DNA of 62,945 nucleotides, filler included. It is 10 parts of 10 records of this genome, joined end to end, with 100 filler letters (N's around TTAATTAATTAA, not from the genome) between each part and the next. Parts side by side here need not be neighbours in the genome. Positions count along the whole stretch, not along the records: positions 1 to 5,216 come from SRR7504441_3642; positions 5,317 to 23,338 come from SRR7504441_3643; positions 23,439 to 26,488 come from SRR7504441_3644; positions 26,589 to 31,229 come from SRR7504441_3645; positions 31,330 to 36,657 come from SRR7504441_3650; positions 36,758 to 42,531 come from SRR7504441_3657; positions 42,632 to 45,652 come from SRR7504441_3662; positions 45,753 to 53,066 come from SRR7504441_3663; 2 more parts are not named here. One strand, given 5' to 3'. The notes under the pieces were generated by a model that was not told where the DNA came from, did not search any database, and saw only the letters and a program-made list of their open reading frames with translations. Below, piece by piece: positions 3,325-60,377 of the stretch (within the stretch, counting starts at the first letter, position 1; every line of letters begins with the position of its first letter). The position numbers and the translations under genes were made by a program.

Positions 3325-4996
3325 ATGAGACTACTCGCTGCCGTCCTGTTGCTGGCCGGCGCCTCCGGCCGCTCGGTCTGGCCCAAGCCGCTGCACCAGG
3401 CTGACACCGGTGCGGTGCACGTGATCGACCCAGCGGGGCTCCGGTTTAGCTGCAATGCGTCCAGCCCGATCCTGCTCGACGCCTTCAAGCGGTACAGCGG
3501 CATCATCACGGCCCACGCCGGCGCCAGCTTCCATGCCACCGACACAGCTGCCATCTCGACCTGCGCCGTATACGTGGGCAGCACTGACGATGAGCTCACC
3601 CTGGAGACCGACGCCTCGTACTCGCTGACCGTGTCAGGGAGCGGGATTCAGATCTCGGCCGAAACGGTGTACGGCGCAGTCTACGGGCTAGAGACGTTGT
3701 CCCAGCTGGTGGACCGGGGGGCGTTTATCAACGGCACCCAGATCTCGGACCGGCCGCGGTACCAATTCCGGGCGAGTATGATAGATACGAGCAGGCATTA
3801 CTATCCGTTGGAAGTGATCCTGCAGCACCTGGATGCGATGAGCTACAACAAAATGAACGTGCTGCACTGGCACATCGTCGACTCCATCTCGTTTCCGTTC
3901 CAGTCCACTACTTTCCCTGAAATGAGCACACAAGGCGCCTACAGCCCTGACCACGTGTATACCCACGACGACGTGAGCACTGTGATCGCGTATGCTAAGA
4001 ACCGCGGGATCAGAGTGATACCTGAGTTCGATACTCCCGGGCACGTCCAACAGGGCTACGCAGCGCTCGACCCCCCTATCCTCACGCAGTGCTACGACCC
4101 CAAGACCGGTAAGCCGATCGAGGGCGACGGTGCCACAGGTCCACTGGATGTCACGCTCCCAGCCACTTATACATTCCTGGCCAAGCTATACAGCGAGGTG
4201 GCCAAGCTGTTTCCGGACAAGTTCGTGCACGTCGGCGGGGACGAGGTGCCGTCGGCCTGCTGGGCTTCCAACCCTCACATACAGCAGTACATGAAGGCTC
4301 ACAACCTCAGGTGCGCCGTGCCTGCTCTGGGGTTCACGCAGAGGGCAGCTCGTTTGCCGACTTGGAGACGCTTTACGAGCAGCGGCTGTTGGATTTGCTC
4401 AAGGCGCAAGGCAGCTCGTACATTGTGTGGCAGGAGATTTTCGACAATGGCGCCAAGATCCAGCCCGACACTGTGATCGACGTGTGGAAGGTGCAGCTAC
4501 CGCCCGACTGCAGCCCGCACTGAGTGCATTGGGCCAGGGCGGCAACTGGCAGCAGGAAATGTCCAACGTCACCCGGGCCGGGTTCCACACGGTGCTCTCG
4601 GCGCCTTTCTACCTCAACTATATCTCATACGGTGAGGATTGGCCCAACTACTACAACGTCGAGCCTTCCAACTTCACCGGGGGCGAGGCCGCCGACAGAG
4701 CCGGGCTGGTGGGAGGGGTCGAGGCCTGCATGTGGTCCGAGTTCGTGGACGCGTCCAACTTCATCTCGCGGATCTGGCCACGGGCCGCAAGCGTGGCCGA
4801 GCGTGGCTGGTCCTCTAAGGATACGAGGGACGTCGGCGAGGCTAGGGTGCGACTGCACGAGTTCCGTTGCAAGCTGCTCGAGCGCGGCATCGGGGCGGAG
4901 CCGATCACCAACGGCGGCGACCCGGACGAGCTGCACGGGAAGAACTTTTGCCCTCGGGAGTGGGTGCCAAGGTACGCTCGGCCGTGGGATGGTTGA
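3325..4996 (+). CDS. Beta-N-acetylhexosaminidase (GH20), secreted/lysosomal; 3 exons
   Basis: Signal peptide MRLLAAVLLL; DTSRHY, NVLHWH, PEFDTPGH, HVGGDE, EACMWSE, RIWPRA; introns 4311-4348 and 4491-4537 join the frames. Confidence 0.93.
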
Positions 4997-5061
4997 ATAA
5001 TGGCTGAAACCGCTGATCTGATGATTCCGATGTGCACACGATTGAACGCATTTAGATAGTA

Positions 5062-5101
5062 AGTTGAGGTAGAACGGCGCCGAGAGCGCTGTGTGCAACC
5101 C
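5062..5101 (-). repeat. Inverted 40-bp copy of hexosaminidase coding segment 4580-4619
   Basis: Reverse complement matches at 36/40 positions (GLHTALSAPFYLN vs GFHTVLSAPFYLN). Confidence 0.85.
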
Positions 5102-5216
5102 ACTTACAATAAATATTTGACACCAAGTCTTGATCATAACGGTTCTAACAGTAGTTTCAACGGTGAAGGATAAGCGCACTAAAGCGCATTGAGTACTACA
5201 GTGTTAGCCTTCTACT

Positions 5217-5316
5217 NNNNNNNNNNNNNNNNNNNNNNNNNNNNNNNNNNNNNNNNNNNNTTAATTAATTAANNNNNNNNNNNNNNNNNNNNNNNNNNNN
5301 NNNNNNNNNNNNNNNN
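5217..5316. other. Artificial contig spacer (N-run, TTAATTAATTAA, N-run)
   Basis: Identical 100-bp linkers also at 23339-23438, 26489-26588, 31230-31329, 36658-36757, 42532-42631, 45653-45752, 53067-53166 and 58561-58660; six-frame stop linker. Confidence 0.98.
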
Positions 5317-5323
5317 CCATTGA

Positions 5324-6533
5324 TCAGCCTGGGCCCTGGCACCTCAGATGGGCGAACGAGGTTGGGTAGAACTCTAGAGGGTAATCGACCCCATCCACCT
5401 CCACACGATACTTCTTGTTCACCCGCTCCTTCACCAGCGCCCCCCGCCCGGCGTATTTGCCCTTCTTCATAACTATCCGCCGCCCCTCCCACTCATCCAC
5501 CTCTCCCGGCCCGTAGCTTCGCACTCGCCGCATCGCCGGAAAGCTCTTCGGAGAGTCGAGTGCCCTGTCCTCCAGTGTCTGCACGGCCGGTCGCCCTTGC
5601 GGCCCGTGCAGAGTGCTAATTAGCCCTGAGAGCGCGCCCATTTGTTGTTGGGCCGCGATCCTGTGCTCCAGGTCCCCCGCCATTGGCCCCACCATCGGCC
5701 AGCTGGCCGCAATCGTCGGCAGTTCCGCAGGCGGACAGGACTGGTTGAGCTGTCCACATGGCAGGAATGGCTGAGCGGGCACGGTTGGATAGGGGCCCCC
5801 AAACTGACCGGCAGTGTACGCCGGCGCGGGCACGGCCTCCTGCGAGGTCTCGGCCGGCCCTCGAGGGACGCAACTGAAGCAATAGTCCACTTTGCACGCT
5901 ATGCAGTGCCACCGCTCCTGCTGCCAGGGCTGGGCGCAACTGTCGCAGGTGAACCTGCCCTGCGGGTAGCTGGCATCGGCCCGGTCCGACGGGGTGCACG
6001 GGTGACCGGCCGGGCACTGGGGCACAGTGCAAGTGGTCGGCAGCCTGGGTCCTCCTCCAAAACCAGCCGGGGCCGCTCTCCCCAAGCCCGCCGGCTCGCC
6101 CTCGCCGACGGGCCAACCACGGGCATCCCCAGCCTTGGCCAGATCCCGGGTGCTCCTGACTGTGGACTGTTCCATGAACCGATTTAGCTGGTCGTCAGTG
6201 AACTCCAGCAGCTGGTCACAGGCCACTTGGCTCAGGCCGGACCCCACACGCAAAAGCTCCGGATCGCTCGATCGCGACCCAACCCGGGACAGCTCGGCTG
6301 CGCTGGCCGGCTGCTCCTCCGGGAGGCCCGGGGTGTCTGCCAGCGCCTCCTGGAACGCCTCCAGCGTGCCGTCGGAGCTGGCCCCCGGGCTGAGCCGGCC
6401 AGGGGAGGCAGCCAGGCTACCCGGAGCGGAGCAGTTCGTACAGTTCGTCGTCCGTCGGGCTCATGGTGCGACAGAGCATCGGGTTGAGCCCGCCCGAGCC
6501 CTGCCGGTGCAGCCCCGGCAGACCGTCGACCAT
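5324..6533 (-). CDS. ZZ-type zinc-finger protein with C-terminal KOW/SH3-like domain; 2 exons
   Basis: CPAGH...CDSC...HCIACKVDYCFSC; GRRIVMKKGKYAGRGALV; intron 6379-6421. Confidence 0.65.
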
Positions 6534-6607: not shown

Positions 6608-7853
6608 ATGTCCGAGCCAGATCCCAAGCGTCCGCGAGTCGAGCCGGCCGACTGGTGGCTGCCGGCGGGGTGCGGGCTGACCATGGGGGCAGGACGGCCA
6701 CGCTGCAGCAGCTCCAGACCACCGTGGCTGGACTCCAGGCGCCTGCACCCTCTGGGGGCCGCCAGCGGGGCCGGGCAGTCCACGCTCGCCGGGGCGATGA
6801 CCAAGACGACCGGGGAGCTCGGGGCGTCGGTGCAGATGATGGAGCGGCTCAACGGACTCATGGAGCAGTACCTCGTGCGCAGCCTGGCGATCGGTGCCGG
6901 CCCCGGCTCGGATCCGGGAACCCGGCGGCAGAGCTAACGGCCCTACCGCACGCCTCGTCGACTAAAGAGGCGCCCGCCGCGGAGCTCCGGCTGCAGCTAC
7001 AGAACATGTGCCGCTGCCGCCGGCCAGAGCGCGTCCCAGCCACTGGCCAGGTGTGCCTTCGCCCTACCGGGCCTGACGCTGGAGCTGAGCGCGCGGGCGG
7101 TGGGCGGCCGGCGGCTGGGCGTTACGCGCCGGGCCAGCCCGATGCGGCGGCGGCGACGTCCATCGCGGCGGAGCTGACGCATCTCTCGGGTGCGCTCGGC
7201 CCGGGTGGGTTTGAGCACAGGCAGGCGAGCACTGGTGGAGTGGAGGTGAGTTTGAATTGTCTGGAGGCGAGCGGCACTCGCTGGCTGCGGTGTGGAGGCC
7301 CAGAGCCGGGCTCTCCGCGGTGCCGGGCCGGTCGGGAGGCTGGTGAGCGAGAGGGGCAGTGCGAGCTGGTGGCTCGGCTCAAGTTTGTGAGTCCTGGCAC
7401 CGGCAAGCCGCTCAGCTCTGCGGGCAAATGCACGGTGCCCGTATTAGAACTGGTCAGCTCAGGCCGGGGCTGGTCTGACGGGAGGCAGTGCGGCTGTCCC
7501 GAGGCTGTGCAAGGCGACGCCGGGCTCAGCAGGCAGGCTTGGTCAGGGCTGTGTAGCTGACGGTGTCGCACAGCATCGATGGCAAAGATTCTGCAGAGCC
7601 AGTGCGGTTGGATTTCATGCGGAACTGGCTCGCTGTGCCGGCTGCCGAGGCCTTTCCGTTCGGGCGACAGTACACGCTGGTGTGGCCAGCCTGGGGGCGG
7701 CGGATGAGTGAGGTTGGGCAGTTGTCGGGGACAGTCAAGGTGCATGTGGGGCCTGCAGAGCAGGAGGCAGTGCTGGTGCTGCTGGAGGTTTTCGGGTGGC
7801 CGGGCGGGGCGAGCGGTCGCAGGCGGCCGATGGGGAGCGGGCTGCCCAGTTGA
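6608..7853 (+). CDS. Multi-exon hypothetical protein (N-terminal coiled coil)
   Basis: Introns 6655-6692, 6739-6778 (GC-AG), 6894-6931, 7008-7050 and more give a continuous ORF MSEPDPKRPRVEPADWTATLQQLQ...; 3' exons less certain. Confidence 0.55.
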
Positions 7854-15575: not shown

Positions 15576-16311
15576 TCAGTCTTTGCTACTTGGGTGCTCC
15601 TTGTGGTTTTCGGTCGGGTAAACTGAGGCCATGCTGGCCTTGAGCTCGTTGATCAGCTCATCCGTGTGCCCTGGTTCGCTGTAAGCCGGTTTCTCAAACA
15701 CTCGATACACAATCGGCCGAAAGAACTCGAGCGGCTTGCTCTTAAACTCGCAGTCGAACGAGGTTTGGTCCCAGTCCCGGCAGAAGGCCTCGCATGCCTC
15801 AAAGTGCGGGCTGGCCCGCAGTCGCTCCTTGAGCGTATGATCCCGCGCCCCGGCCGCCTGGCCGTAGTAGAACAGTTGGAAGATCTCATGGTGGATCAGG
15901 ATCCAGTAGCTCCGCGGGCTGATAAATGGCCGCATCAGCGCCGCGGCCACCTCCCCGTGGTTCACTGGGGAGAGATGCTCCCCTATGTCGTGGAGCAGCG
16001 CCACCGCCACCAGCTCCTCCTGCTCGGCGGTCAGCCCATCGGAGTCGCCCCCGTCGGCGGTCAGGGCCTGGTAGCAGCGGGTGGCGGTCTGAAGCCCGTG
16101 CTCGTACAAATCCACCGGGCAGCCTGCCCCCGGCTGGTGCGGCCAGGGCAGGGCGGCGCGCACCAAGGGAGAGCCCGCGCTGGGCTTCGAGCATCTGGAG
16201 CAGGTGGTCGGCCGTGTGCCGGGGTGAGGCGATCTTATTGAACGCGCTGTCCATCTCGGTCAGCTCGGCCGGGCTCATCTCGGCCAGCGAGCCCGACCAC
16301 TTCCGCTTCAT
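15576..16311 (-). CDS. HD-domain metalloenzyme (PhnZ/COG4341-like); 2 exons
   Basis: EHGLQTATRC...ALLHDIGE...NHGE...HHEIFQ...DWDQ; intron 16124-16163. Confidence 0.8.
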
Positions 16312-17535: not shown

Positions 17536-20073
17536 CTACTCGACGTACTCGATCCCTTGACTGTATTTTGACATTCGGAGCTCCAATTCGTCGTTGGTCG
17601 TCTTATAGCAAATCTTTTCATGGAGCTTTTCATACAAGTCGGCCGTGTTCTGAGAGTGCAACATCTGGTCAATTTCCTCGTCAAACGGCTGCGCGATATG
17701 TCCAGTTCCCTCGCCCTCACAGGACTGCGCAGCTGCGTGCTGCACATGCTGCATGAAGTGCCCCACCACTCGCACAGTCGCGCTGTCCCGCCAGTCCAGG
17801 AAGATGTACGCCTCCTTGATGTGCAGCCTCGACACTCCAGGCGGCGAGGTGTACACTGTACTCGGGTGCTCGTCGGGATGTATCGCCTTTTGTTTGATCA
17901 GCCTGCGATACTCCGACTCGGAATCGCCCGGCTTGACTCCTGCAGGGAAGTACTGGAGCACCGGGTGGATGTAGTTACTGAATATCCCAGAGCGCACAGT
18001 CCTGATCTGGCAAACTGCTTGGGCCGGAGGACCGAGCGGCCCATGCCACACTGTAACCCCGATGAGCTTTGGGCGGCATGGGCAGTCACCGCCATAGTGG
18101 TACGACCAGGTGATCCTGGGCATGTCTGGATACTTTTCGTGCACCTGCAAGGTCGCTCATGCGCTAACTGCCAGCTCAACTCACATAGTCCTCCGGCAAG
18201 TCCTCGATGTATATGGCTTGCTGCTTTTTGCAGTCAAACACAATCGCGTCGGCAAGCGATCCTCCAACCATTTCGAAAGGGCCGGCCGCTTCGTTGATTC
18301 GGTTGAGCAGCCGCTTTATCAGCGGAGGCGCCAGCTCATACTTGGCTGACACGCTGTCGAGCTCCGCTGGCTTAGCAACTTGCGCCACAGGCCATTCAAA
18401 CGCGCGCACCCCATCGTCTGCACGGCACTGTTGGTTGGCCTGATCTTGGCAGCCGTCTTCGTATCGTCTTTCGAGTAGCCGAGAGAGGGTTCGACAGACA
18501 AATCTAAACCCGTGAATGAACCCTCCAGACGCCTTGTACCGGTATCGATCGCTCCCATGTGCGGCAGCCCCAGCAACGAAGAGATGCGGAGCCGAGACAG
18601 ACTCGTACTCGCTGTTGAGCTCCGGGTACACTTGAGGGTCATGAACAGAGTGTTCAAGTCTAATAAAAGGCCGCAGCCAGGTCTGCCTGTTGGGCGGCCC
18701 TGTCATCTTGACCTTCACGGAGTCGTCAAGCACCGACGAGTCCCACGTCCAGCCGAGCGCCGACACCACCACATCGTACGGCTTCTGAAACTCCTCCCCG
18801 CTGTGGGTCAGCTCGATGCTCGAGTCACGCAGCTTGATCAGCAGCTGGCGCTGCTCCAGACTGTCTGCCCGAAGCAGCCCCTCCTTGGAGAGAAGCAAGT
18901 TCCTATCGAGCGCCGGATTCACACTGAGCCCAAGCTCGTCCGCAAACAGCGACTCACGGATCTGCTCCCCAGTCGGGTCGGCGACCAGCAAGTCCCCGTC
19001 CTCGAACAGCTCGAATGCTCTCCTGATCAGCGGCTCGAGCGCCGACTCCATTGGAGCCAGGACCACCCAGTCCTTGCCGGGATGATCGGCAAGCTGGATC
19101 TTTGAGAAGAAGCACACGGGCGGGGCGCCTTGAAAGCCTAGATTATCCGAGTCCGGCCCGCACGGCACCATCAGCAGATCCTGCGACTGCTGGCTGATCG
19201 AGCCTTCATAAGACTTGAGGCTGAATGCGTCCGCGTGTGTCGTCCTCCGTGCTCGTACGTCGCCCACGTAATGGGTGTCCTTCATCTGCTTGAGCGCCCT
19301 ATACCGGCCAACCACCTGGATATCGCGCGCATAATTCCGCACAGCATCCGCAGTCTCAGCCGCAGCGTTGCCAGCGCCCAAGATCAGCACCGATCTGTTC
19401 TCGAACGCCTCGCCGGGCACGCCGCTCAGCTGGTCGTACCGCACGGCCAGCTGAGGCATGTTCTCCACCCAGTCGTCCACCCGCCTCGGCCGCTGCATCC
19501 CGGTGGCGAGCACAAGCACGCCGCACTCGTACTGCTTAATCGTAGATCCCGCCGCCACCCGCAGCCTGTACCGACAGTCCGGGCCGCCCGGCTCGCACCG
19601 GCTGACCGTCTGCACTGAGTGCCCGAACAGCAGCCGACCGGCCTCCAGCTGCGGCTTTGCGAACGCATTGATATACTCGACCAGTGTGTCGGCCGGCGGC
19701 CAGTACTCCTTGCTCCAGTTGCCGAACAGCTGGGCCGGCTCGCCGGGCAGCGGCAGCAGCGAGTTCCAGTCGTGCCGCAGGTTGAACTCCAGATTGCCTG
19801 ACCGGGTGAACCGGCGGTTGATGCTGTTGAGCTGCCTGTGGATCGGGAAGCGTTCGAACCAGGAGCCGGCCCGCGGCTGCCGCTCGAGCACGACAAAGTC
19901 CCGCCCCCGCCCAAGGAGCATGTGCCCCAGCTGCACCCCACCCGGCCCCGCACCCACCACGCAGTACTTGTGCCGCTGGACCGCCGCCGGCTCCCCCGAG
20001 CCGATGGCCAGCCCTAGCGCTAGCACTGGCAGCACACGTCGCGCCGGCAACAGGACAGCCGGAGCATGGCCAT
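17536..20073 (-). CDS. FOXRED2: FAD-dependent oxidoreductase FOXRED2/ERFAD
   Basis: YCVVGAGPGGVQL, FNLRHDWNSLL, SVLILGAGNAAAET, HYVGDVRA, ASGGFIHGFRF; spliced; start approximate. Confidence 0.85.
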
Positions 20074-20142: not shown

Positions 20143-21664
20143 ATGCGCGACGGAGGAGTGGAGGAGGTGCGGCGGCTGGTGGCGGAGCGGCTGGCGGCCC
20201 GGGACCGGCGGGAGTTCGACCGGGCCGACGCGCTGCGCCGGACCTTGTTTGTGGCTCACAGCGTCTCGGTGGACGACAGCGGGGACTGGAGCGCGCATCC
20301 AGGACTCGGCCAGGACGGCGGCTGCTTCGCCTGGTGTCGCCGTCGGCGGGTCAAGCCGGGCGACCGGCCTGGGTACAAGTGCGGCCGGCCGGTGCAGGCG
20401 GGAGGCTGGTTCTGTGCGCTGCACGCGCCGGCGAATCGGGGCAAAGTGCCCTGCCCGACCGACCCCCGGCACGCGGTGCCGCTGGCCAAGCTGCACGGGC
20501 ATCTCAAGGTCTGCTCCGGTGGGGTGCCCTCACACAGCCAGGCCCCGGTCGTCGAAGGGCCACACCTGACCGCCGGCCGAAATAGCGGTGGATCCGGGGG
20601 GCTGCGGGAGCCCGAGGAATCCCGGCTGCTGCCTGCGGAGGCGGGGCCGGCCGCGGTGGCAGCGGCCGAGGCGGATGAAGCGCTGCTGGTTCGGCTGCAG
20701 GCCCGGGTCATCGCGGCGCTTGCCAGTCTGCGTGTGTGCGACGGTTGCGCCGACGCGGTGCCTGCTGCATCAGTGTGTGAGGCCGTCAGGCTCAAGCCAC
20801 TGAACCGGAGGCACCCCGAGCCGCCTCCGTCGGCTAGCAGCAAGCGGCGGCGGGATGCGGTGCAGCAGGGTGCGCTGGCCGCGCTGGCGAGTGAAGGCCT
20901 GGTGGCCCCGGCAGCCGTGGTGGAGTTTTGTGCTGGCACCGCTGGATTATCACAAGCTCTAGGGCGGCTGTGGCCGGAGGCTGCGCTAGTGGCAGTGGAT
21001 AAGGCTCAATTCCGGGGGGTCCATTCGGGGGCGGTGCGGGTGACGGCAGACATAAGAGACCTCGAGCTGTCTGGAGTCGCGGAGCTCTGTGACGCCGACC
21101 GGTTTGTGGCAGTGGGCAAGCATCTTTGTGGCTCGGCCGCTGACTTAGCCCTCCGCTGTGTGGTGTCGACGGAGCGGCCGGCTGCCGTCAGAGTGGCCAT
21201 AGCGCTGTGCTGTCATCATCTGTGCGACTGGGGTAACTGCGGGCCACGGCTGGCACGGTAAGCCTGGGCACAGATGATTTCGTTAACAGGGAATTGCTCT
21301 TGTCTCACGGGATCGGCCGAGGCGAGTTCGGCCTGTTGAAGCGGCTGTGCACGCGGTAACGGAATAAATGGCCCTGTCAAGTGAATTGGCTGTGCGCAGG
21401 TGTCGTTGCCACCCTGCCCAGGACCGGGTCGACAGCTTCCGGTCAAACGGGACAGTCTTGGCTGGTGACGACCCCAGGCTGCGGACTGATCGGGCGAAAC
21501 AAGCGGCGCGGCGGGCTGAGCTTGGGTTGCTGGCCAAGCGGTTGCTGGATGAGGCAAGGGCCAGCTGGCTCCGGCGGTGCTGTGGGTGGAAGGAAGTCCA
21601 GTTGGTGCAGTACGCTGCGATTGAGGTAACGCCGGAGAACCACCTGCTGATTGCATCGCCGTAG
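20143..21664 (+). CDS. TRMT13: tRNA:m4X methyltransferase TRM13-like; 3 exons
   Basis: CCCH finger, CHHC finger (CPTDPRH...HLKVC), EFCAGTAGLS, DIRDL, KHLCGSAADLALRC, IALCCHH, TPEN; introns 21233-21273 and 21356-21399. Confidence 0.85.
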
Positions 21665-46010: not shown

Positions 46011-47523
46011 TTAAGGCGCGCATTTGAACCAGCGATTTAGCGCGAGGCGCCGATTTAACTTGGCATGCTCGATATAGCTCGAAAGACCGCGATACAATTT
46101 TGAGGCGCACAACACATCTAAAAGTCTTGGGTACAAAAGCAACACATCTCGCTCCCAGTCTGGCGGCTTGTGGTGCCTCGCCCACACGAGCGGCACGTAG
46201 TCTGCGCCCGGTCAGCAGGGCACCAATGGCCAGCTACGGTCGTGCTTGACGCTCTGCCATCCGACCACCACCGGCCGTCCATACACCTCGGCTGGGTCGA
46301 GCCTGATGGGCAAGTGCAGCCCGGCTACGCCCCAGTATCCTCTCCCAAACATCTCAATGTCCCGCTGGCTCGCCTGGATGAGCAACGGCCGCCGCAGCAC
46401 GTGCGCGCATGCCACCTGCGACGGCTCAGGCTCGGCCGGCTTAATCGAGCAGACCGCGTGCACATTGGACAGGTAGGCGCCGGGGGTCTGGGCCTGGAGC
46501 AGCGCTTGCTTCCAGTCGGCCTGCCCAACCCGATCTATGTACCAGTCCTGCTGCTTCTCAAGCTCATTCGCCACCTGCCCAGGCCGATCAGCCCGGTCCG
46601 GCTGGGCAGGCTACCGCCACCCGGAGGATGTCCGAGAACAGTTCCATCCCCCACACGCCGCGCGAGACCGCGTGCAGCAGGCAGCTCCCGTCGCCTGTTG
46701 TGTTGAGAGGGAACAGACACACGTTCTGCCGCTCTGCAAGGTCGAAGATGTTGTCCGCCAGATACTCATAAGCGGCTTGGTCGATATCGTCCGACCGGAT
46801 CGGCAGGTAGCAGCAGCGTGTGTCGGGCAGGGTGTCCTGGAATATCATTCTGATTGTGGGCGCCAGCACCTACTCGCGGCTCAGTCAAATCCACCGCACT
46901 TGTCAAGGCCAGCGCACCACCAACTCGTCTCTCAGGATCTCCCGCCGACTGCGCTGCGAGTAGGTGGTGCCTGGAAGCAACGGATTGTTCACATCACCCG
47001 TCTGCAGCTCACTGCACAGCAGCACTGGCCGATGCGCCTGGCCCGCCCGGTCAAGCCCCGCTCTGCCAGGCCGGTCGCCTTGCACATCCGGCAGCACAGG
47101 TCAGTGGACTTGTTCTCGTCGAATGTGCACCGGCTGCAGGTCCAGTCCGGACCCCCAGCCGAGCAGTCCACCCGCTGGAAGAGCGTCACCGGGGCCGCCT
47201 TGCCACTCGGAGTCTGAATGGGGACGAACCGCCCGCCGTCCAGCTGCAGGTAGGCCCCGTCCGCCCCCTTGGCCTCCACCGCCCGCAGGATCTCTCCGAA
47301 TGCGGGCCCGGCCCCGCCGATCGCGCTGCCGAAGCTCGGCCGGCTTCGGTACCGCACCTGCCCCGGTAGAGTCAGCGGCGCCCGGAGAACCAGCCACTCC
47401 TTGGGGCACCACGCACTGCCAGTGCTCGGGCTCCCCTGGCGGCGGCGGCGGCGGCGGCGGTGGGCCCGGTGGTCCGCCCGGCGGAGGCGGTGGTTGGGAC
47501 CCTCCGAGTTCCACTGGCGGCAT
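46011..47523 (-). CDS. OTU deubiquitinase (A20/Cezanne/VCPIP1-like) with RanBP2/NZF finger and Pro-rich N-terminus
   Basis: WTCSRCTF...CCRMC; PLNTTGDGSCLLHAVSRGVWG; HVLRRP; removal of intron 46202-46237 creates the catalytic HYVPL. Confidence 0.82.
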
Positions 47524-47589: not shown

Positions 47590-48814
47590 CTACTCGGTCT
47601 TGGCTTTCTTTTCTACTGGACCCGACGCCATCACGATATCCATTTGCTCCTCAATCTGTGCGGCGAGAGGTGCCACCACCTCCGGGCCTAATCCGTGCTT
47701 GTCGCAAAATGCTGACGCCACCTCTTGCGGTCGATCTCCGTGGCACACTTGCACCGTCGCCGTCGCCTCCGGGTTGGCCTCAGTGGTAATCTGGACATCC
47801 TGCCATCCACAGCTCAGCACCGCCCGGCTCAACGCTCACCATTTCAAACAAAACCCAACGCTCGCCGCTGTCGTCAGCCAGCAGCTCGGCAGGCTGCCGC
47901 TGGTTGCTGTGCAGAATCCTGGCCTGGAATGGCTTGCTGCCCTCGCACAGACTGGTCCGTGACCGGTGGTTTACGTGGTCCCGAAACCACGGCCGGCAGT
48001 AGCACAAGTAAAGCACCATCCTGTCCTCTGCCGAAACATTAGCCCCACCGCGATGCTGCAGCCGGTAGTCGAAAACGACCACTGACCCGGCCGGGCAGCA
48101 CACGCCGAACGCGGGCTTGCCCTGTCTACTGGTCTGGCCGGCTAGATGGGTGGCTGGCACGAACTCGGTCGGCCCGTTGGCCTGGTTCAGGTCTATGAGC
48201 GGCACAAACACATTCAAGCAGTGCGGCGGCAGCTTCATCGACCCGCCGAACAGTTGGCCGCCGTCCCCGTGCCACTTCTGGGGCTGGCTGGCCGGGTCGG
48301 CGCCGGCCACCATCACGCCCGAGTACAGGAGGCAGACCGTGCCCCCGAGGCAGGCGCTGACCAGCGGGAACCAGGTTGGGTTGTAGACCAGCTCCGACGA
48401 ATTGAACGGCGGCTCGTCCATCTTGTAGCGCAGGTCGTACCGGTTGCCGTCCCGCTCGACGACCTCGGTGAACCCGCCCGGATTAAGGCTGTTGATGTCT
48501 TGTATACCAACCCCGGCTCTGCCCGTTCGGTCCGCACGGAGCCGCCGGAGCCTCTCGCAGACATGCCCGAGGTTGCGGGTGGCGGCCTCGCGGCACTGCT
48601 GCAGCAGCTTGGCCGAGATAGCCGCCGGCCAGTGCACCAGCCCATTCCGGAGCAGGCAGGACACGGCCTCGCGGGGCGGCTGCCCGTCGACCGGTGCCAC
48701 CGCGCACTCGGCCGGCACTCGGGCAGGCTGAGCGCCGCTGTCCGCCAATGCCTGCGCCCAGCATTCTTGCAGCAGCTCGTCCTCCGCAGCCCCACTCGCC
48801 CCGCCCTGCTGCAT
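47590..48814 (-). CDS. PhyH-family Fe/2OG dioxygenase with small C-terminal domain; 2 exons
   Basis: QKWHGD, FVPLIDL...NGPTEFVPATH, GSVVVFDYRLQHRGGAN...DR; intron 47800-47839. Confidence 0.85.
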
Positions 48815-53066: not shown

Positions 53067-53166
53067 NNNNNNNNNNNNNNNNNNNNNNNNNNNNNNNNNN
53101 NNNNNNNNNNTTAATTAATTAANNNNNNNNNNNNNNNNNNNNNNNNNNNNNNNNNNNNNNNNNNNN

Positions 53167-53694
53167 GCGACGACCAGTTCCGGGTGAGCCCCAAGGGGGT
53201 CCCGCTGGAGGTTGTTCACTACTTCAACGTCCTGAGCTGGGTGCGGTGGTCCAGTCGGCGCGCGCTGAGAGCGGCCGGGCAGGGCGAGGGGCACGAGCTG
53301 CTGCAACTAAGCACGGCCGGGACCTCGATCAGTCCCTCATCCGGCCAGCGCGCCCAGACCCGGTACGCCGACAGTGTGGACGCTGGGCTGATTGGCCTGC
53401 AGGGACAAGCGGCTGCTCCAGTTTAGTTGCTGCGAGCCTGGCGCTGTGGCCCAGCAGCTGAGGATCCGATGCCAGGCAATGATGGCAGAGTTTAACAACG
53501 AGCCGATCGCCCGGTCGCTGGACGCCAGCATAGCCCCGCTCGTCCAGCAGGAAGCAAGCGAGGTCCAGGCGCGTGCCGCGCAAAAGGAGGCGGCCGCGCA
53601 AGGCGAAAGTCTCTCGTGTCGGTCGCCCCAGGAGGTGCGGGAGCTGCCGGGAGGCGAAGTGAGGAGGAGGCACCGGCGGAACACAATCATCTAA
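53167..53694 (+). CDS. 3' part of hypothetical multi-exon gene
   Basis: ORF pieces to TAA at 53694, followed by an AT-rich spacer. Confidence 0.35.
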
Positions 53695-55095: not shown

Positions 55096-57094
55096 CTATG
55101 GATTCCTATTCGTCCAAGTCATCTCGAGCTCCTGCTCAAACATAGTCTCCTTTTGACTCGCCAGTGCAAACCCACGCCGCTGCATGAACTGTTTCAGCCC
55201 ATCCTCAGTCGCCTGCCCTGTGTACAGTGGATGGGCAGTCACCTGCAGCCCAATCGGCCGCAGCTCAGCCCAGCCCCGACCTGTGCCGAGCACTGCACCT
55301 CGGCCACCCGGCTTTCGAGCCACCAGCCGGCTGACTCAAGCACTTCCAGCTCAAGCCCCTGAGCCTCCACTACCAGCCTATCCACTCGGGCCAGCTTAAG
55401 CGCCTCAAATAGCGTAGACAGCCGGTAGCACCGCACCATCCCGCTGGTGTGCGGCAGGAACTGCGGCAGTTTGGCCGGCTTGCCGGTATGGGGGTCTTTG
55501 TAATGGCCCAGCGCGTTGCTATCCTGCCACAGAATCGCTCTCAAGCCCTCGGTGAGCGGCCTACCACGCTGAGCACGCTTGAATAGTCTGCCATCGTTGG
55601 TCAGTCGCTGGCGTGTCAGGCCAAGCTACCAGCCCTGGCGCACATATTGAACGGGGTGAACCCGTCGTGACGTCTCACTGCAGCACAGATCTTGGCATCC
55701 ACTGGCCTAGCGTGAGACTCTCGCCAGCTTGCCACCACCTGGCCGAGTCTTGATCCGCGCATACGAGCTGTACACCGGCTCCACAAACAGCGCCGGCGGC
55801 GCATCGCCGCTCCCGGTGCTGCCCACAGCCCTCATTGCCTGCGCCAGTACAGCCAGGGAGACCCGCACGCCTTCCCAGCACCGACGTGCACCAGCCAGCC
55901 GGGCTGGTCCTGGCGGGCTCTCAAGCCAAGCCGGTCGAGCGGGGTGCGCGCCAGCAGCGAAATAGCCAGCCCTGCGCGCGCAGGTGGCCGCAGGTGGCCG
56001 GCCACGAGTGCACCTTGAATCTTAGTATGCAGTGTGGCGCACAGCGTGGCCTCTATCGCCACCGCGGCGTCTGGGTCGGTCGGCGGCGGCCTCGGTTCCC
56101 TGCCCAGGCAGAGCAACACGAGCTGCTGCAGCTGCAACTTGGGCTGCACCGGTGGTAAAGGCTCAGCTGTCCACCCCTCAGTGAGCTGGGCACAGCTGCC
56201 CGTCACATAAGTCGGCCACGCGCTCGGCCGTGCTCAGGCTCGGCCGGGATCCAATGGCCCGTTGCAGCCACACGAGCAGCTCTGGGGCTTGCACTGCCGC
56301 CTTGATCGGGCCAGCCGGAGCGAAAAACAGGTACCAGACCAAATGCTCTAACTGCCCGACGGGTCAGCTGGCCCGGGCAAACGCACCATCTGGCCGGCCC
56401 GGGCTTGCGCTGACGGCAAGTCTATGACGAACACTTCCCGGCCTACGGCCACCGCCAGCACGGCCGCGGAGGCGCCGCAGTGCTCCGAGAGGTCGCAGCG
56501 TGCTGCGAGCCCCACCATCTCCCCCTCCCGGCCAGCGGCGATCAGGCCCGAAACCGCCCGGGAGAGCGAGTTCGAGCAGGCGCACCGCACCGCCCGCCGA
56601 CCGTCCAGCTCCTCCAGCCGCAGCGGCGGCTCTTCGTCCATCGGCGGATTGAGGATCGCCGCGTGGGTAGGGCAACTGCAGCTCGGCGGCGCCGCACTCA
56701 GCAGTGCCATCCGCGTGGCCCCGTCAGCTGCCCCATCCGCTGGGGTTTCGCCGTCGGCGTCCACCGCCTGCTTGTCGGCCCCGGCATTGAGCAGCAGCCC
56801 GACCACCGGCGAATGGCCGTTCCAGGCCGCCCAGTGCAGCGGCGTGGCCTGGCTCCGGTCCCTGAAGTTGACGTCAGCGCCCCGGGCCAACAGCTCCCGG
56901 CACAGTGCGACGTGCCCGCCCTCGCACGCCCAGTGCAGCGCCGTCCGCCGGTATTGGGCCACATGCGCGTCCGGCGCGAGTCCCGACTTGTCGAGCTTGG
57001 CCCGGACTGCCAGCAGGTCGCCGGCCTTGGCTGACTCGAGCAGCCCGGCCACCGCGGCTGCCTCCTCCGCCTCCTGCAGCGCGGCCACGCTCAT
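55096..57094 (-). CDS. Ankyrin-repeat protein with degenerate exonuclease-like middle and FkbM-like methyltransferase C-terminus (possibly two genes)
   Basis: RTALHWAC, TPLHWAAWNGH; LAVAVGREVFVIDL; VHVGAG...LFVEPV...VDRLVVEAQGLELEVLES...LYTGQ...FMQRRGF. Confidence 0.55.
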
Positions 57095-57219
57095 CGGAGC
57101 AGCACGCGGTCCCACGCAAAGACCGTCACCGGAGCCCCGACTGCAGGCGGGTGCTGTCGGTTGGCCGCCAAGCCGGAGTTGCAGCGGCACGAGCACGAGT
57201 CGGCAGTGCGGACGGCAAG

Positions 57220-58131
57220 ATGGAGGGCGAGTCTACCCAGCCGCCTCGGCACACCTCGATGTCGGTGCTGGTGGCGCTATCCTCGGTCGGCTCGGTGCGC
57301 GACATCGACTACCCCGGTGCCCCTAGGCAGCTGCCTGGCCCAGCCCGGCGGACCAGCCGGCACCTCGGGCACGGCGCTGATCTCGATCTACACCACGCTC
57401 ACCGCGGCCAACTTTAACATCGTGCTGGCCACCGCCGGGGGCAACCCGCCCGAGTTCTCCTGCGAGGACGATAAGAGCGAGGCCTGGATGCGCGAGCACA
57501 AGCAGCTTTACAGCCGACCGCTGCCGCTCGAAGAGGCCAACGGTAGCCGCCCTCGGCCCCAGCCGCCGAGCGGGCGGGGTCAGAGCAAGACTTTGACGCG
57601 CTGTTCCTGCCCAGCGCTCTCGGGGCGATCCAGGACCTAGCGGCTAACGAGGCGGTGGGCACCCTGGTTCAGGCCTTCCTTACCCGGAAGAGTGAGCGCC
57701 TCCTGCGCTGCCGGGGACGAGCGGACGGACAGAGCCTATCGGAGCCATAGGGTATGGCGTTGGGGGGCTGTGCGGTGCAATGGCTGCTGAGAGCGAATGG
57801 TGCTTCAGCGAATACAACATGACAGGAGTACGCCGCGCAGTGACTGTGTCCTGACAACGGGTGAAGGTGTCAGTATATGAGATGGCCAACCAGCCGTTCT
57901 TCGACAAGCTGCCGTTCCTGATAGAGGATTTCATCCGGGACAATGGCGGGAGCTATAACTGTACGTGCGTCGCTTGTGCTGGACTGATTGCCGGTTGCAG
58001 GCACACCCGAAGAAGGGGCAGTGCACGTCATTGTGGATCGGTGTCTGGTCACCGGTCAGAACACGGCGTCTACGGGGCTCGCGGTCCAGAATTTGGTCTG
58101 GCTTATGAAGAACGAGGCCCAGCTGCACTGA
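57220..58131 (+). CDS. GATD1: GATD1/PDDC1 (DJ-1/PfpI superfamily); 6 exons
   Basis: Introns 57317-57356, 57543-57583, 57692-57732, 57828-57866, 57961-58000 give FDALFLPS...KPIGAIGYGV...WCFSEYNMTGVSVYE...LPFLIEDFIRDNGG...HVIVDRCLVTGQN. Confidence 0.88.
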
Positions 58132-58942
58132 TGAGCCCCGGCTTGTGCCAATTCATTGCACTTTGAGAGGCTTGTCAATAGCTCGTCAAAGATGTCGTGA
58201 GATTCATTTTAACGCACGAAGCTACATGTACATGAACTTTTTACAGTGAACTCGTTATGAATTCATACTGTACCTGGCAGATTGGCCCACTCAGGTCGGT
58301 ATCAGGTCGGCATAGACAATTTTGAATACAATAGTGAAAGCAAAGCATCCCGCATACAATCGATATCTACCGGTATATACAATCATATTTCATTCTGTTT
58401 TAGATATGCAGTGGTTGGGGCAGACAGGTGACGTCTAGTTGTGAGCTCGTTGCTTTGTCTGTCTCGTCCGGACTAGTAGTTCGTATTCGGCCTTCCGTTC
58501 GGCTTTTGAAAGCCGAGTGTGCTGCAATAGGCATGCGGACGCTGCTAGATTAAAGCGAGTNNNNNNNNNNNNNNNNNNNNNNNNNNNNNNNNNNNNNNNN
58601 NNNNTTAATTAATTAANNNNNNNNNNNNNNNNNNNNNNNNNNNNNNNNNNNNNNNNNNNNATCCGTCCTAGCTTCATCTCAGGTCACACGAAAGCTATAG
58701 ACTAGTTAGACTCAAGACTCGTACTCGTAGGCAGCCAGTACATGTAGGCGAGTACGTGGAGGCCCGCCAGAGCCCGCTAGAGCCCGCCAGCACGAGCTGT
58801 ACTGCATTGCATCTGGGGACTCCAAGTCAAGCACGTCTCGTCTCATCAGGGGTCACCACAACGGAACAAGCTGAGGAATCCGCGGCCGCTTCTTCATCAC
58901 AATCCGCGCCAGGGGGGGCGGGTGGACTTGACGCGATTAGCT

Positions 58943-60377
58943 ATGGACACGGTTTTGGCTGAGGGGCAAGCTGACACGCAAGGGCTCGTGATCGCCGAGC
59001 GCCGTTGCTCCACCTGCCACAGCTCCAGGTCAGCCGACGAGTTCACCGGTGTGCCCGGCCGCCGAGCCACGCCGATTCACCCGGCGGCGCAGGCAAGCTG
59101 CAAACATGCCGGGACTGCCTCCATATCAAGCGGGTCAAACGCCAGAAAGTCCTGGTGGGCCAGGAGTCCAGCCCGGGGCTCATCGGTGGGCAGGAGGAGA
59201 CTGCGCTGCTCCAGGCCCAAGTACACAACGGGCAGGAGGCAAACTCTCTGCTCCAGGCTCGGGTGCGGGAGCTCGAGGAGCAGGTCAGATTGTTAAGCGC
59301 GGAGCGGGACCAGATTACACACGAGCGGGATCAACTGGCCCGCTGGCGAGACGAGACGCTACAGTTGCTCAGAACGGACTTCATGCAGGATGAATCAGAT
59401 TACACCGATGATGTTGGCGGCCGATCGGGCTCGCAGGAGGCTTCGGGGAGCGGGAGCGGATCGATGTTGATGGATGCATGCATGCCGGATCTGGTGGATC
59501 CGAGTGTGGCCCAGGATGTGTGGCGGGCCGCTGCAAACCGGAAGCATGTGGACTACGAGAGTTCGTTCCCTTCATCACTCGAAACACTGTACAATCTGTG
59601 GACCTTCAACCAGCGGTTCTATGGACTGTCGACCATTGTGGTGGTGTATGTGTCCACCTTCTTCTTATCTTTGGGACTATCTGAAAGTTACCCTTCCTTG
59701 GCCGAGTCCTCACTTGTGTTTGCGATCACTCCAAGGCTGCTGAGCACCTGGAACATTTACTCTTTCTTGGTGTTTCTTCTGGTCTTGTATTTGGTTCTGT
59801 TGCCCTTACTGTTGACCTTTACGAGGAAAAACCAACTGTTGATGCACGCACTGCTGCCTAAAGTGTTGATGGTGTTCTGTTGTTTCGAATATGTCCGTAC
59901 GGCCAGCGGTAACAGCCCTCCTAATCCCAACGCTAACGTGTGTGGCAGGTATCATGAGACGGCTGGGCTCGGGGTCAGAAGTAGACCCGCAGAACTTCAT
60001 GCTGCAGATCCTGTGTGCATACGTGACGCACATAGCTGCGACAGTCATGCTCAATATTTCACCATGGTGCAGCACCATCGGAGCAGTGTGTCAGGTGGCA
60101 TATCTTGGGCTGTTGCATTCTGATGAATACCGGACTGCATTTGCGGCGACATGGCCCGCGATCCTGTCTGTGCTATTGCTACAAGTGATGGTTGCTTTCA
60201 CGACAAGCCACCGAGGAAGAATGGCCTTTGTCAAAGCTTACTCGCTGTCCAAGTATGTTTCTCAAAAGTGTCAACACGAGCAGCACCTTTATTTGTGACT
60301 CCGCTGGAGCGATTGGCCTCCTTACAATCGTCCTCCCGCGGCTCACGAGGCCTATTCGTTTCTACATGATTGTATAA
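58943..60377 (+). CDS. Protein with N-terminal CxxC...CxxC finger, basic/coiled-coil region and multi-TM C-terminus
   Basis: Intron 59049-59092 gives CSTCHSSRSADEFTGKLQTCRDCLHIKRVKRQK; LQARVRELEEQVRLL; several hydrophobic helices. Confidence 0.6.

What the first reader, a model, noticed from the sequence alone, without database searches (positions are those of the whole stretch)
4311..59092. Genome-wide class of ~40-nt structured introns without a polypyrimidine tract
About 28 hand-mapped introns, each needed to restore a reading frame, are 36-49 nt long and mostly 38-41 nt. Their 3' ends are usually G-rich (GGGCAG, GGCGGCAG, GGACAG) rather than pyrimidine-rich. Many fold into a stem whose 3' arm ends at or near the acceptor: 38967-39009 GCCAGCAG/CTGCTGGC-AG; 38795-38831 GCCCC/GGGGC-AG with CTAAC in the loop; 46202-46237 GTGCCC/GGGCGC-AG with CTGAC in the loop; 59049-59092 GCCGCCG/CGGCGGC; 57543-57583 CCGCCC-TCGGC/GCCGA-GGGCGG; 16124-16163 CTGCCC/GGGCAG. 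Established: canonical 3' splice-site recognition uses U2AF65 on a pyrimidine tract. Inference: here RNA structure and near-fixed length may define introns, which would be an unusual splicing code.
Basis: partly seen in the sequence, partly recalled or inferred. Interest (0 to 1): 0.72.

Follow-up and report, generated by a model that had tools for sequence, protein, structure and literature searches.

The report
Tiny GC-rich introns, not structured
A marine choanoflagellate-like genome has real, very short (about 40-base) introns that mostly lack the usual pyrimidine tract, but their hairpins are what any sequence this GC-rich would form, so they look like ordinary minimal introns and not a new structural splicing code.

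Summary
The window is ten contigs joined by N44-TTAATTAATTAA-N44 linkers. A GH20 tree places contig 1 among acanthoecid choanoflagellates.

The short introns are real. Four are confirmed by homologue alignment and four by kinase-profile continuity. A gene finder with a flat 25-80 nt length prior gave 39 introns: 10 exactly 40 nt, 24 of 37-44 nt.

In GC-rich loci positions -9..-4 are 59% G and 35% pyrimidine, so there is no pyrimidine tract. A CTRAN/TYRAC branch motif lies at -11..-18 in 14 of 27 (2.1 expected), and the acceptor is the first AG after it in 13 of 14.

For 27 introns, mean folding z against dinucleotide shuffles is -0.29 (p = 0.12), and GC-matched exon windows fold about equally. 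The predicted pairing next to the acceptor mostly survives swapping tails between introns, so it comes mainly from the shared G-rich tail. In a low-GC kinase gene the introns are 48-57 nt with T/C-rich tails.

RNA-seq could not test any junction.

The parts
4311..4348 (+). 38-nt intron 1 of the GH20 hexosaminidase gene
   Evidence: 7 of 7 homologues align without a gap across it. Pfam profile 1-192 then 194-240. Fold z = -0.08 / 0.04.
4491..4537 (+). 47-nt intron 2 of the GH20 gene; CTGAG branch motif with A at -15
   Evidence: Fold z = -0.43.
6378..6420 (-). 43-nt predicted intron
   Evidence: Gene finder with flat length prior; needed for the frame. Fold z = 0.61.
6894..6931 (+). 38-nt predicted intron
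   Evidence: Found without any splice-site matrix and again. Fold z = -0.84.
16124..16163 (-).
Evidence: Fold z = 0.93 / 0.78.
18145..18184 (-). 40-nt predicted intron (GTGAGT...) in a flavin oxidoreductase-like gene
   Evidence: Fold z = 0.50.
21258..21289 (+). 32-nt intron 1 of the TRM13 gene
   Evidence: Homologue P0123 changes frame here; sequence read. Fold z = 0.60.
21356..21399 (+). 44-nt intron 2 of the TRM13 gene
   Evidence: Pfam TRM13 profile 17-146 then 208-256. Fold z = 0.61.
22878..22919 (-). 42-nt predicted intron in a TPR gene; no branch motif, lower confidence
22980..23019 (-). 40-nt predicted intron, very G-rich, no branch motif; lower confidence
   Evidence: Fold z = -2.01.
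23124..23163 (-). 40-nt predicted intron, G-run rich
   Evidence: Fold z = 0.58.
23475..23513 (+). 39-nt predicted intron; CTGAC with A at -13
   Evidence: Fold z = 0.03 / 0.12.
25916..25952 (+). 37-nt predicted intron (GTGAGT...); CTGAG with A at -11
   Evidence: Fold z = 0.66.
30494..30532 (-). 39-nt predicted intron; CTGAT with A at -13
   Evidence: Fold z = -0.12.
37308..37356 (-). 49-nt intron in the kinase domain; T/C-rich tail
   Evidence: Read by eye. Pkinase profile 69-170 then 179-257 in successive frames. Fold z = -1.25.
37402..37451 (-). 50-nt intron in the kinase domain; tail ...TTTCCTGCAG
   Evidence: Fold z = -1.37.
37583..37630 (-). 48-nt in-frame intron in the kinase domain (between KPQN and VLL)
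   Evidence: The Pkinase match has about 36 extra residues, which equals the 57 + 48 nt of this intron and the next one. Fold z = 0.38.
37860..37916 (-). 57-nt in-frame intron (GTAAGC...) in the kinase domain
   Evidence: Fold z = 1.18.
38001..38051 (-). 51-nt intron that removes an in-frame stop; a 30-nt alternative (38001-38030) is equally possible
   Evidence: the donor is ambiguous.
38795..38831 (-).
   Evidence: Fold z = -0.66 / -0.88.
38967..39009 (-).
   Evidence: Fold z = -2.82 / -2.86; 2 of 200 shuffles fold as well.
40441..40481 (+). 41-nt intron in an M24 peptidase gene; CTGAG with A at -13
   Evidence: Fold z = -1.18.
46202..46237 (-).
   Evidence: Not chosen by the gene finder. 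Fold z = 0.55 / 0.60.
46575..46614 (-). 40-nt intron; CTGAT with A at -14
   Evidence: Both flanks score strongly as coding. Fold z = -1.09.
46870..46917 (-). 48-nt predicted intron; lower confidence
47800..47839 (-). 40-nt intron (GTGAGC...) in a PhyH-domain gene; CTGAG with A at -15
   Evidence: Fold z = 0.88.
53363..53402 (+). 40-nt predicted intron; CTGAT with A at -12
   Evidence: Fold z = -1.60.
55702..55738 (-). 37-nt predicted intron; lower confidence
56167..56206 (-). 40-nt predicted intron; CTGAG with A at -12
   Evidence: Fold z = 0.31.
57317..57356 (+). 40-nt predicted intron
   Evidence: Fold z = -0.53.
57543..57583 (+).
   Evidence: Fold z = -1.06 / -0.85.
59049..59092 (+).
   Evidence: Fold z = -0.46 / -0.58.
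59909..59948 (+). 40-nt predicted intron (GTAACA...); CTAAC with A at -13
   Evidence: Fold z = -0.18.

Best explanation
These are ordinary U2-type (GT-AG) spliceosomal introns that have shrunk to the smallest size the splicing machinery of this lineage accepts. The lineage is probably an acanthoecid choanoflagellate.

The introns are most likely recognised as whole units (intron definition) through three short signals at a nearly fixed spacing:
- a degenerate 5' site, G|GTR;
- a CTRAY-like branch site about 25-28 nt downstream of it;
- the first AG, almost always CAG, 11-15 nt after the branch adenosine.

The spacing adds up to about 40 nt. The 7-11 nt between branch motif and CAG leaves no room for a long pyrimidine tract, and none is required. 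That stretch is A-poor and takes on the local base composition: G-rich in GC-rich genes, T/C-rich in a low-GC gene.

The hairpins are what any 70%-GC 40-mer with a G-rich tail forms; they are a by-product, not the signal.

Shown here: the introns, their lengths, their composition, the motif spacing, and the lack of excess folding. Inferred: intron definition, the first-AG rule as a mechanism, and dispensability of U2AF65-type tract binding.
For: Junctions. GH20 junctions are confirmed by 7 of 7 homologues and by Pfam profile continuity. TRM13 junctions are confirmed by one homologue. Kinase junctions are supported by profile continuity.

Length. 10 of 39 introns are exactly 40 nt and 24 of 39 are 37-44 nt under a flat 25-80 prior. 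The model-free site-pair excess is 31 against about 14 per bin at 36-43 nt.

Branch site and acceptor. A CTRAN/TYRAC motif with A at -11..-18 is found in 14 of 27, against 2.1 +/- 1.5 (maximum 7) in 500 shuffles. The 3' site is the first AG after the branch A in 13 of 14. C is at -3 in 25 of 27, and A is rare at -12..-4.

Folding. GC-matched exon windows have about the same MFE per nt. Tail-swap chimeras keep most of the acceptor-proximal pairing, 0.69 against 0.75.

Composition. Tail composition follows local GC: with flank GC under 0.56 (n = 7) the tail is Y 0.60, T 0.42, median length 49; above that (n = 38) it is Y 0.42-0.45, G 0.42-0.43, median length 40.

Precedent. Short-intron lineages have degenerate signals (PMC2483917, abstract and section 15 read). 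Human short introns with truncated tracts splice without U2AF (PMC8363638, abstract and passages read).
Against: No RNA evidence exists for any junction: the two RNA runs covered no short intron.

Only 4 introns are homology-confirmed and 4 more profile-supported. The six short introns found with no matrix and the homology-confirmed ones do show the same features.

13 of 27 lack a recognisable branch motif; some may be false or use other branch sequences.

G at -8..-4 (59% at -9..-4) exceeds the intron-wide 40% G, so the tail is a positional feature and may be functional and not passive.

Tail-swap chimeras pair slightly less than native introns (3 of 100 reach the observed value), so a small intron-specific component is not excluded. 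One intron (38967-39009) has a clearly non-random hairpin.

The low-GC kinase region could be a misassembled or foreign piece.
Confidence: 0.7

Rival explanations
1. The G-rich tail, together with C-rich runs upstream, is a functional intronic enhancer that replaces the pyrimidine tract. It would be bound by G-run-binding proteins of the hnRNP H/F type or by an snRNA, or the introns would be handled by an SPF45-like factor in place of U2AF65. Sequence motifs would act, not RNA structure.
For: G makes up 13-19 of 27 at each of positions -8..-4, against 40% intron-wide. GGG occurs 3.84 against 2.70 per 100 nt and CCC 3.20 against 1.50 per 100 nt, introns against exons. [quoted passage not shown] 12 of 15 validated human ultra-short introns are G-rich (PMC4463651, abstract read).
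Against: Introns of the low-GC kinase region of the same contig have T/C-rich tails and few G runs, so the G tail is not obligatory. The GGG enrichment is modest (1.4-fold) and partly follows from the higher GC of introns, 70% against 63%. No binding factor can be looked for, because no genome is held.
Confidence: 0.15
2. One reading: a hairpin whose 3' arm ends at the acceptor, together with fixed length, defines the intron and presents the branch site in a loop. This would be a structural splicing code that replaces U2AF65 tract recognition.
For: The quoted arms exist. Predicted pairing probability at -10..-3 is 0.75 against 0.55 in interior shuffles, reached by 0 of 100, with the terminal AG left open at 0.29 and 0.12. 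Native introns pair slightly more than tail-swap chimeras (3 of 100 reach the observed value). Intron 38967-39009 has z = -2.86. Structure between branch point and 3' site matters in some yeast introns (PMC3239191, listing and abstract seen).
Against: Mean z is -0.29 (p = 0.12) with 2 of 27 below -1.64. Exon windows do not differ (p = 0.24), and GC-matched MFE per nt is about equal. The eight best-supported introns have mean z = -0.04. Chimera mean MFE does not differ (p = 0.14). The kinase introns have weak folds. A sequence branch motif at fixed distance already explains 3' site choice.
Confidence: 0.07
3. The 40-nt introns are recent copies of a short transposon-like 'introner' family, which would explain the uniform length and the palindromic look.
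For: Lengths are uniform. The mean best local alignment score between introns is 11.4 against 9.9 +/- 0.33 for shuffles. The two GH20 intron positions are not shared with the nearest metagenomic relatives, which have introns elsewhere.
Against: The excess similarity is small and is of the size expected from the shared branch and tail motifs, which were not masked. No long shared core is visible in the listing. Known introners are mostly longer (recalled, not checked here). Target-site duplications were not examined.
Confidence: 0.04

Closest known systems
Minimal (size-floor) spliceosomal introns of short-intron lineages, such as Encephalitozoon (35.8 nt on average), Trichomonas (about 25 nt), Paramecium and the Bigelowiella nucleomorph (Irimia and Roy 2008, PMC2483917; abstract and section 15 read)
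   Same: U2-type GT-AG introns with a narrow length peak at a lineage-specific minimum, degenerate 5' sites, a short fixed distance from branch point to AG, and no poly-T tail.
   Different: The composition here is about 70% GC with a G-rich tail (GGGCAG), and the peak is at 40 nt. The lineage, judged from one gene tree, is a choanoflagellate; the sequenced Monosiga brevicollis has 6.6 introns per gene with a mean size of 171 bp (Table 1 of PMC3753549).
Human ultra-short G-rich introns, such as NDOR1 intron 12 (49 nt) and ESRP2 intron 6 (43 nt) (Shimada et al. 2015, PMC4463651, abstract read; Fukumura et al. 2021, PMC8363638, passages read)
   Same: Lengths are 37-65 nt, the introns are G-rich, and the pyrimidine tract is poor or absent.
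   Different: In humans they are rare exceptions, often with 'completely inefficient' splice and branch sites. Here they are the majority form, and half carry a good CTRAY branch motif at a fixed distance.
SPF45/RBM17-dependent human short introns with truncated pyrimidine tracts (PMC8363638)
   Same: Short introns in which the U2AF heterodimer is not needed because the tract is too short.
   Different: The factor dependence is unknown here. No genome is held, so SPF45, U2AF and SF1 could not be searched.
G-rich and C-rich intronic splicing enhancers in GC-rich introns with weak pyrimidine tracts (Murray et al. 2008, PMC2481429; passages read)
   Same: G runs and C runs are enriched in short GC-rich introns with weak tracts. 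They can be drawn as a stem-loop, which that paper found unnecessary for splicing.
   Different: In that work the motifs lie upstream of a weak tract in 80-nt-plus human introns. Here the G run sits where the tract would be, and its function is untested.
Yeast introns in which a hairpin between branch point and 3' splice site is needed for 3' site use (PMC3239191; listing and abstract seen)
   Same: The idea that structure near the acceptor can guide 3' site choice.
   Different: In yeast the structures shorten long branch-to-AG distances. Here that distance is already 11-15 nt, and folding does not exceed shuffled controls.

Membership tests
U2-type (GT-AG) spliceosomal introns | GT at the 5' end and AG at the 3' end | tested here: met
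   All four homology-delimited introns begin with GT and end with AG. The other predicted introns do so by construction of the finder.
U2-type (GT-AG) spliceosomal introns | Removal restores a continuous protein that is colinear with homologues | tested here: met
   GH20: 7 of 7 homologues are colinear over three frames. TRM13: 1 homologue. Kinase: Pfam profile continuity. All 39 of 39 predicted introns are frame-restoring. For the remaining introns this rests on prediction only.
U2-type (GT-AG) spliceosomal introns | Branch-site motif (CTRAY-like) a short distance upstream of the 3' site | tested here: met
   14 of 27 have a CTRAN/TYRAC motif with A at -11..-18, against 2.1 +/- 1.5 in shuffles. 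13 of 27 have no such motif.
U2-type (GT-AG) spliceosomal introns | Pyrimidine tract between branch site and AG (metazoan or plant type) | tested here: not met
   Pyrimidine fraction is 0.35 at -9..-4 and G is 0.59. The longest pyrimidine run in the last 20 nt averages 2.8, against 3.2 in exon 20-mers. The feature is present in the low-GC kinase introns (Y 0.60, T 0.42). It is not universal among U2-type introns.
U2-type (GT-AG) spliceosomal introns | Spliced out of the RNA | tested here: inconclusive
   Two marine poly-A RNA runs were laid on contig 2. Contigs covered 16414-17352 and a few short pieces, with no joint at any short intron.
Structure-defined introns (a structural splicing code) | Folding energy lower than composition-matched controls | tested here: not met
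   Mean z is -0.29 for n = 27 (p = 0.12). Comparison with exon windows gives p = 0.24, and GC-binned MFE per nt is about equal.
Structure-defined introns (a structural splicing code) | Stem at a fixed place relative to the acceptor, specific to each intron | tested here: inconclusive
   Pairing at -10..-3 is 0.75 against 0.55 for shuffles (0 of 100 reach it) and 0.69 for tail-swap chimeras (3 of 100 reach it). The pairing is mostly generic.
Structure-defined introns (a structural splicing code) | Compensatory base changes in orthologous introns | not testable with these tools
   The nearest genomic relatives found share at most 63% protein identity and have introns at other positions.
U12-type introns | Conserved RTATCCTT 5' site and TCCTTAAC branch site | tested here: not met
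   None of the 40 listed introns begins with GTATCC or ATATCC. One kinase intron begins with GTATCT but has no TCCTTAAC.
Introner elements | Families of near-identical intron sequences | tested here: inconclusive
   The best-pair local score is 11.4 against 9.9 +/- 0.33. The excess is small, and the shared splice motifs were not masked.

The most novel reading that the evidence does not exclude
In this choanoflagellate lineage the conserved G-rich tail pairs generically with the C-rich intron body. The pairing sequesters positions -10..-3 while leaving the branch site and terminal AG exposed. This generic fold, not a pyrimidine tract bound by U2AF65, would be what marks the 3' end of a 40-nt intron. 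It would be a lineage-wide, structure-assisted 3' splice-site code in the closest living relatives of animals. The whole-intron z-score test cannot exclude it, because a fold that follows from the positional composition itself is reproduced in part by the controls.
Probability: 0.08. Interest if true: 0.7.

Novelty: new member of a known kind. Interest (0 to 1): 0.36.

Why it matters
If the lineage assignment holds, this is a loricate choanoflagellate with far fewer and far shorter introns than the model choanoflagellate. My gene models give roughly 1-1.5 introns per gene, with a length mode of 40 nt. Monosiga brevicollis has 6.6 introns per gene with a mean size of 171 bp (PMC3753549, Table 1). 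That bears on reconstructions of gene structure in the ancestor of animals.

It also matters for gene calling in marine eukaryote MAGs. Prokaryote-style callers cut these genes at every intron, as seen in the truncated database proteins.

For splicing biology it offers a natural set of G-tailed, tract-less minimal introns that resemble the rare human ultra-short G-rich introns, whose mechanism is still open (PMC8363638, PMC4463651). It does not offer a new structural splicing code.

Tried and rejected
RNA evidence. The look-up of sequencing runs gave only two marine poly-A runs holding 6-8% of the words. The second, on contig 2, covered no short intron, so no verdict on any junction is possible.

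Whole genome. None is held, so U2AF65, U2AF35, SF1, SPF45 and the U1/U2 snRNAs could not be sought. Rfam on the window gave 0 matches.

Orthologous introns. The metagenome scan with GH20 exon 1 returned 69 loci, best 63% identity, mostly low GC. Their introns lie at other positions, so they are unusable for covariation.

More homology checks. The tuberin N-terminus search gave nothing at E <= 1e-10. The representative search with the BRCT-gene ORF returned 26 weak hits sharing only a repeated module of about 50 aa, and no colinear alignment across introns.

Gene-finder versions. The first version ran genes across linkers. Versions allowing 300-nt introns merged pairs of short introns with a mini-exon into one long 'intron'; for example 21258-21399 is really 32 + 44 nt. 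Frame logic alone leaves 7-62 alternative GT..AG pairs per junction, and raw frame-restoring candidates show only a modest peak. The first site-pair thresholds were too strict and gave almost no pairs.

Earlier findings of the scan: nothing on record.

Literature. Searches for choanoflagellate or acanthoecid intron architecture found no description of such introns. The Tara MAG paper mentions Acanthoecida MAGs but says nothing on their introns in the passages found. Supplements were not seen and may hold gene-structure statistics.

Full report
WHAT THE WINDOW IS

The 62,945 bases hold nine spacers of the form N44-TTAATTAATTAA-N44. The window is therefore a pseudomolecule of ten contigs of 3-18 kb joined in arbitrary orientation. 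No whole genome is held.

Pfam annotation of the long frames gives ordinary eukaryotic genes: adenylate kinase, GH20 hexosaminidase, COQ7, BT1 transporter, TRM13, tuberin, ALG9-like transferase, GH123, LRR plus protein kinase, M24 peptidase, PhyH, ankyrin and an ABCG-type transporter. One contig is filled by a copia-type retroelement with a chromodomain.

The best named relatives of the GH20 protein are choanoflagellate transcriptomes (Acanthoeca spectabilis is named). In a maximum-likelihood tree of 20 sequences, the window's protein sits in a clade with the two Acanthoeca sequences with support 98/98. Stephanoeca is the next branch out, with support 98/96. This is one gene from one contig, so the assignment to Acanthoecida is likely but not proven for all ten contigs.

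Two marine poly-A RNA runs hold near-identical pieces of contig 2.

ARE THE INTRONS REAL?

Yes, where I could test them.

- GH20. Seven of seven full-length homologues align to three frames with no gap in the query. For P0002, residues 27-345, 346-393 and 393-544 align to 3373-4308, 4347-4490 and 4535-4990. The middle 47-residue exon matches Pfam GH20 profile positions 194-240, exactly between 1-192 and 244-347 of its neighbours. This fixes introns 4311-4348 (38 nt) and 4491-4537 (47 nt).
- TRM13. Homologue P0123 changes frame twice. Reading the sequence gives 21258-21289 (32 nt) and 21356-21399 (44 nt) around a 66-nt exon.
- Kinase domain of the LRR-kinase gene. I read five further introns by eye: 51 nt (or 30 nt), 57, 48, 50 and 49 nt. 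The Pkinase profile runs 69-170 in one frame with about 36 surplus residues, which equals the two in-frame introns. It then runs 179-257 in another frame.

For the remaining introns I wrote a small dynamic-programming gene finder. It uses a codon log-odds model trained on 13 long frames, 12 of them with Pfam matches, a flat intron-length prior and, from the second pass on, splice-site matrices.

With lengths 25-80 allowed it predicts 39 introns. All 39 are needed for the frame. Ten are exactly 40 nt and 24 are 37-44 nt. Length was not part of the score, so the peak is evidence in itself.

A check that uses no coding model pairs donor-like and acceptor-like sites, with all seed sites excluded. 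It gives 31 pairs at 36-43 nt against about 14 in each other 8-nt bin, and 8 pairs at exactly 40 nt.

When 300-nt introns were allowed, the finder merged pairs of short introns and a mini-exon into one long intron, as the TRM13 case proves. I therefore see no evidence for long introns here.

The class is seen on 8 of the 10 contigs. RNA could not confirm any junction: the contigs of the two runs covered 16414-17352, with a poly-A tail at 17352, and a few fragments, but no short intron.

WHAT THE INTRONS LOOK LIKE

The figures below are for the 27 introns of 36-49 nt.

- 5' site: G at -1 in 23 of 27, then GT, then R at +3 in 26 of 27. Beyond that it is nearly free (GTGCGC, GTAGCC, GTGAGT and so on).
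- 3' end: C at -3 in 25 of 27 and G in 13-19 of 27 at each of -8..-4. The G fraction is 0.59 and the pyrimidine fraction 0.35 at -9..-4. Pyrimidines make up 0.44 over -20..-4, and T is only 0.17.
- The longest pyrimidine run in the last 20 nt (mean 2.8) is no longer than in random exon 20-mers (mean 3.2).

A CTRAN/TYRAC branch-like motif with its A at -11..-18 (mostly -11..-15) is present in 14 of 27, against 2.1 +/- 1.5 (maximum 7) in 500 interior shuffles. In 13 of those 14 the acceptor is the first AG downstream of the branch A. The 5'-site-to-branch distance is mostly 25-28 nt, which with 11-15 nt to the AG gives the 40-nt mode.

Introns are more GC-rich than exons (70% against 63%). They carry more GGG (3.84 against 2.70 per 100 nt) and more CCC (3.20 against 1.50).

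The short introns found with no matrix at all and the homology-fixed ones do show the same features.

THE STRUCTURE CLAIM

The question is whether they exceed what such sequences form anyway.

- Against 300 dinucleotide-preserving shuffles each, the 27 introns have mean z = -0.29 and median -0.18. Two of 27 fall below -1.64 (t-test p = 0.12, Wilcoxon p = 0.29).
- 108 exon windows of the same lengths have mean z = -0.03 (Mann-Whitney p = 0.24).
- In GC-matched bins the energy per nucleotide is about the same: -0.24/-0.24, -0.32/-0.29 and -0.43/-0.39 for introns/exons.
Only 38967-39009 stands out.
- The eight introns with homology or profile support average z = -0.04.

The second condition, no positional bias, is not met in its simple form. 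Predicted pairing probability at -10..-3 is 0.75 against 0.55 for interior shuffles, reached by 0 of 100, while the terminal AG stays open.

When each intron is given another intron's last 16 nt, the value is still 0.69 (3 of 100 chimera sets reach 0.75), and the mean energy is unchanged (p = 0.14). The bias thus comes mainly from a shared G-rich tail placed in a C- and G-rich body. At most a small part is specific to each intron.

THE TRACT-LESS STATE FOLLOWS LOCAL COMPOSITION

The kinase half of the LRR-kinase gene is low in GC. Its introns are 48-57 nt with tails such as ...TTTCCTGCAG and ...CTTTGTGCTCCAG.

Over 45 introns, flank GC correlates with intron GC (Spearman rho = 0.48, p = 0.0009) and inversely with tail T content (rho = -0.37, p = 0.012). 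With flank GC under 0.56 (n = 7) the tail is 60% pyrimidine and 42% T. Above that (n = 38) it is 42-45% pyrimidine and 42-43% G.

The same contig carries typical G-tailed introns at 38795, 38967 and 40441. The machinery therefore seems to accept both kinds of tail, unless the contig is chimeric, which I could not check.

MOST LIKELY MECHANISM

These are minimal U2-type introns recognised across the intron. The signals are a degenerate 5' site, a CTRAY-type branch site and the first AG 11-15 nt further on. Total length sits at the steric floor of this lineage's spliceosome.

The stretch between branch and AG is too short for a classical tract. It is kept A-poor and otherwise drifts with local composition and the G>C skew of the sense strand.

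Shown here: existence, length, composition, motif spacing and absence of excess folding. Inferred: intron definition, first-AG selection and independence from U2AF65-type binding.

The main rival is that the G runs are functional enhancers that stand in for the tract, as shown for human GC-rich introns. In that work a stem-loop between the C- and G-rich motifs proved unnecessary (PMC2481429, passages read). The structural code and an introner origin are less likely.

COMPARISON WITH WHAT IS KNOWN

Narrow length peaks at a lineage-specific minimum, degenerate signals in short-intron lineages and fixed branch-to-AG distances are described in PMC2483917 (abstract and section 15 read). Human ultra-short introns of 37-65 nt are mostly G-rich with poor signals (PMC4463651, abstract read). 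Short introns with truncated tracts use SPF45 in place of U2AF (PMC8363638, abstract and passages read).

What may be new is the lineage and the scale: a choanoflagellate with few, 40-nt, G-tailed introns, against 6.6 introns per gene of mean 171 bp in Monosiga brevicollis (PMC3753549, Table 1).

Three full-text searches found no description of intron architecture in acanthoecid genomes. The Tara MAG paper mentions Acanthoecida MAGs without intron statistics in the passages found. Its supplements were not available to me.

VERDICT

I rate this a new member of a known kind (minimal, tract-less introns), of moderate interest.

Noticed in passing
window 5217-5316, 23339-23438, 26489-26588, 31230-31329, 36658-36757, 42532-42631, 45653-45752, 53067-53166, 58561-58660: Nine 100-nt spacers of the form N44-TTAATTAATTAA-N44 (a six-frame stop linker). 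The window is ten contigs joined end to end, so neighbourhood across spacers means nothing and frames seem to 'end' at them.
   Followed up: yes
window 42632-45652 (-): One contig is a single open frame of 1007 aa with a copia-type reverse transcriptase (RVT_2) and a chromodomain. It is a retroelement fragment without introns.
   Followed up: partly
window 36758-38100 against 38800-42531: Within one contig, and apparently one LRR-kinase gene, GC drops sharply in the kinase half (third-position GC 0.54 against 0.78). The introns change style there, becoming longer and T-rich. This could be a GC-poor island or an assembly chimera.
   Followed up: partly
window 16436-17352 (+): RNA contigs from two marine poly-A runs cover the NIF-type phosphatase gene. 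One of them (8 differing letters over 822 nt) ends in a poly-A tail at 17352, about 65 nt after the stop codon. A second contig differs at 69 of 476 positions, which suggests a related species in the same run.
   Followed up: no
L026 and L063 (metagenome loci): The nearest genomic relatives of the GH20 gene (63% identity) have introns of about 60-210 nt at other positions and none at the window's two positions. The window's gene has none at theirs. Intron positions are not shared.
   Followed up: partly
window 20143-21258 (+): A database protein (P0121, 373 aa) is 98% identical to the first TRM13 exon and stops where the intron begins. Prokaryote-style gene callers cut this organism's genes at introns, and a near-identical organism is present in another public assembly.
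   Followed up: no
window 6655-6692 (+), 30734-30772 (-): Two further segments inside predicted exons have all the hallmarks of the class: G|GTG..., GGCTGAC at -13 or -14, a CAG end, and 38-39 nt. The local gene models may be wrong and the intron count higher.
   Followed up: no
window 22878-23163 (-): Three predicted 40-42 nt introns in a TPR gene are extremely G-rich, with runs of GGGGG, and lack any branch-like motif. They are either false predictions or a more extreme G-rich subtype.
   Followed up: no
window 31330-31360: A (TCC)n simple repeat lies directly after a contig linker.
   Followed up: no
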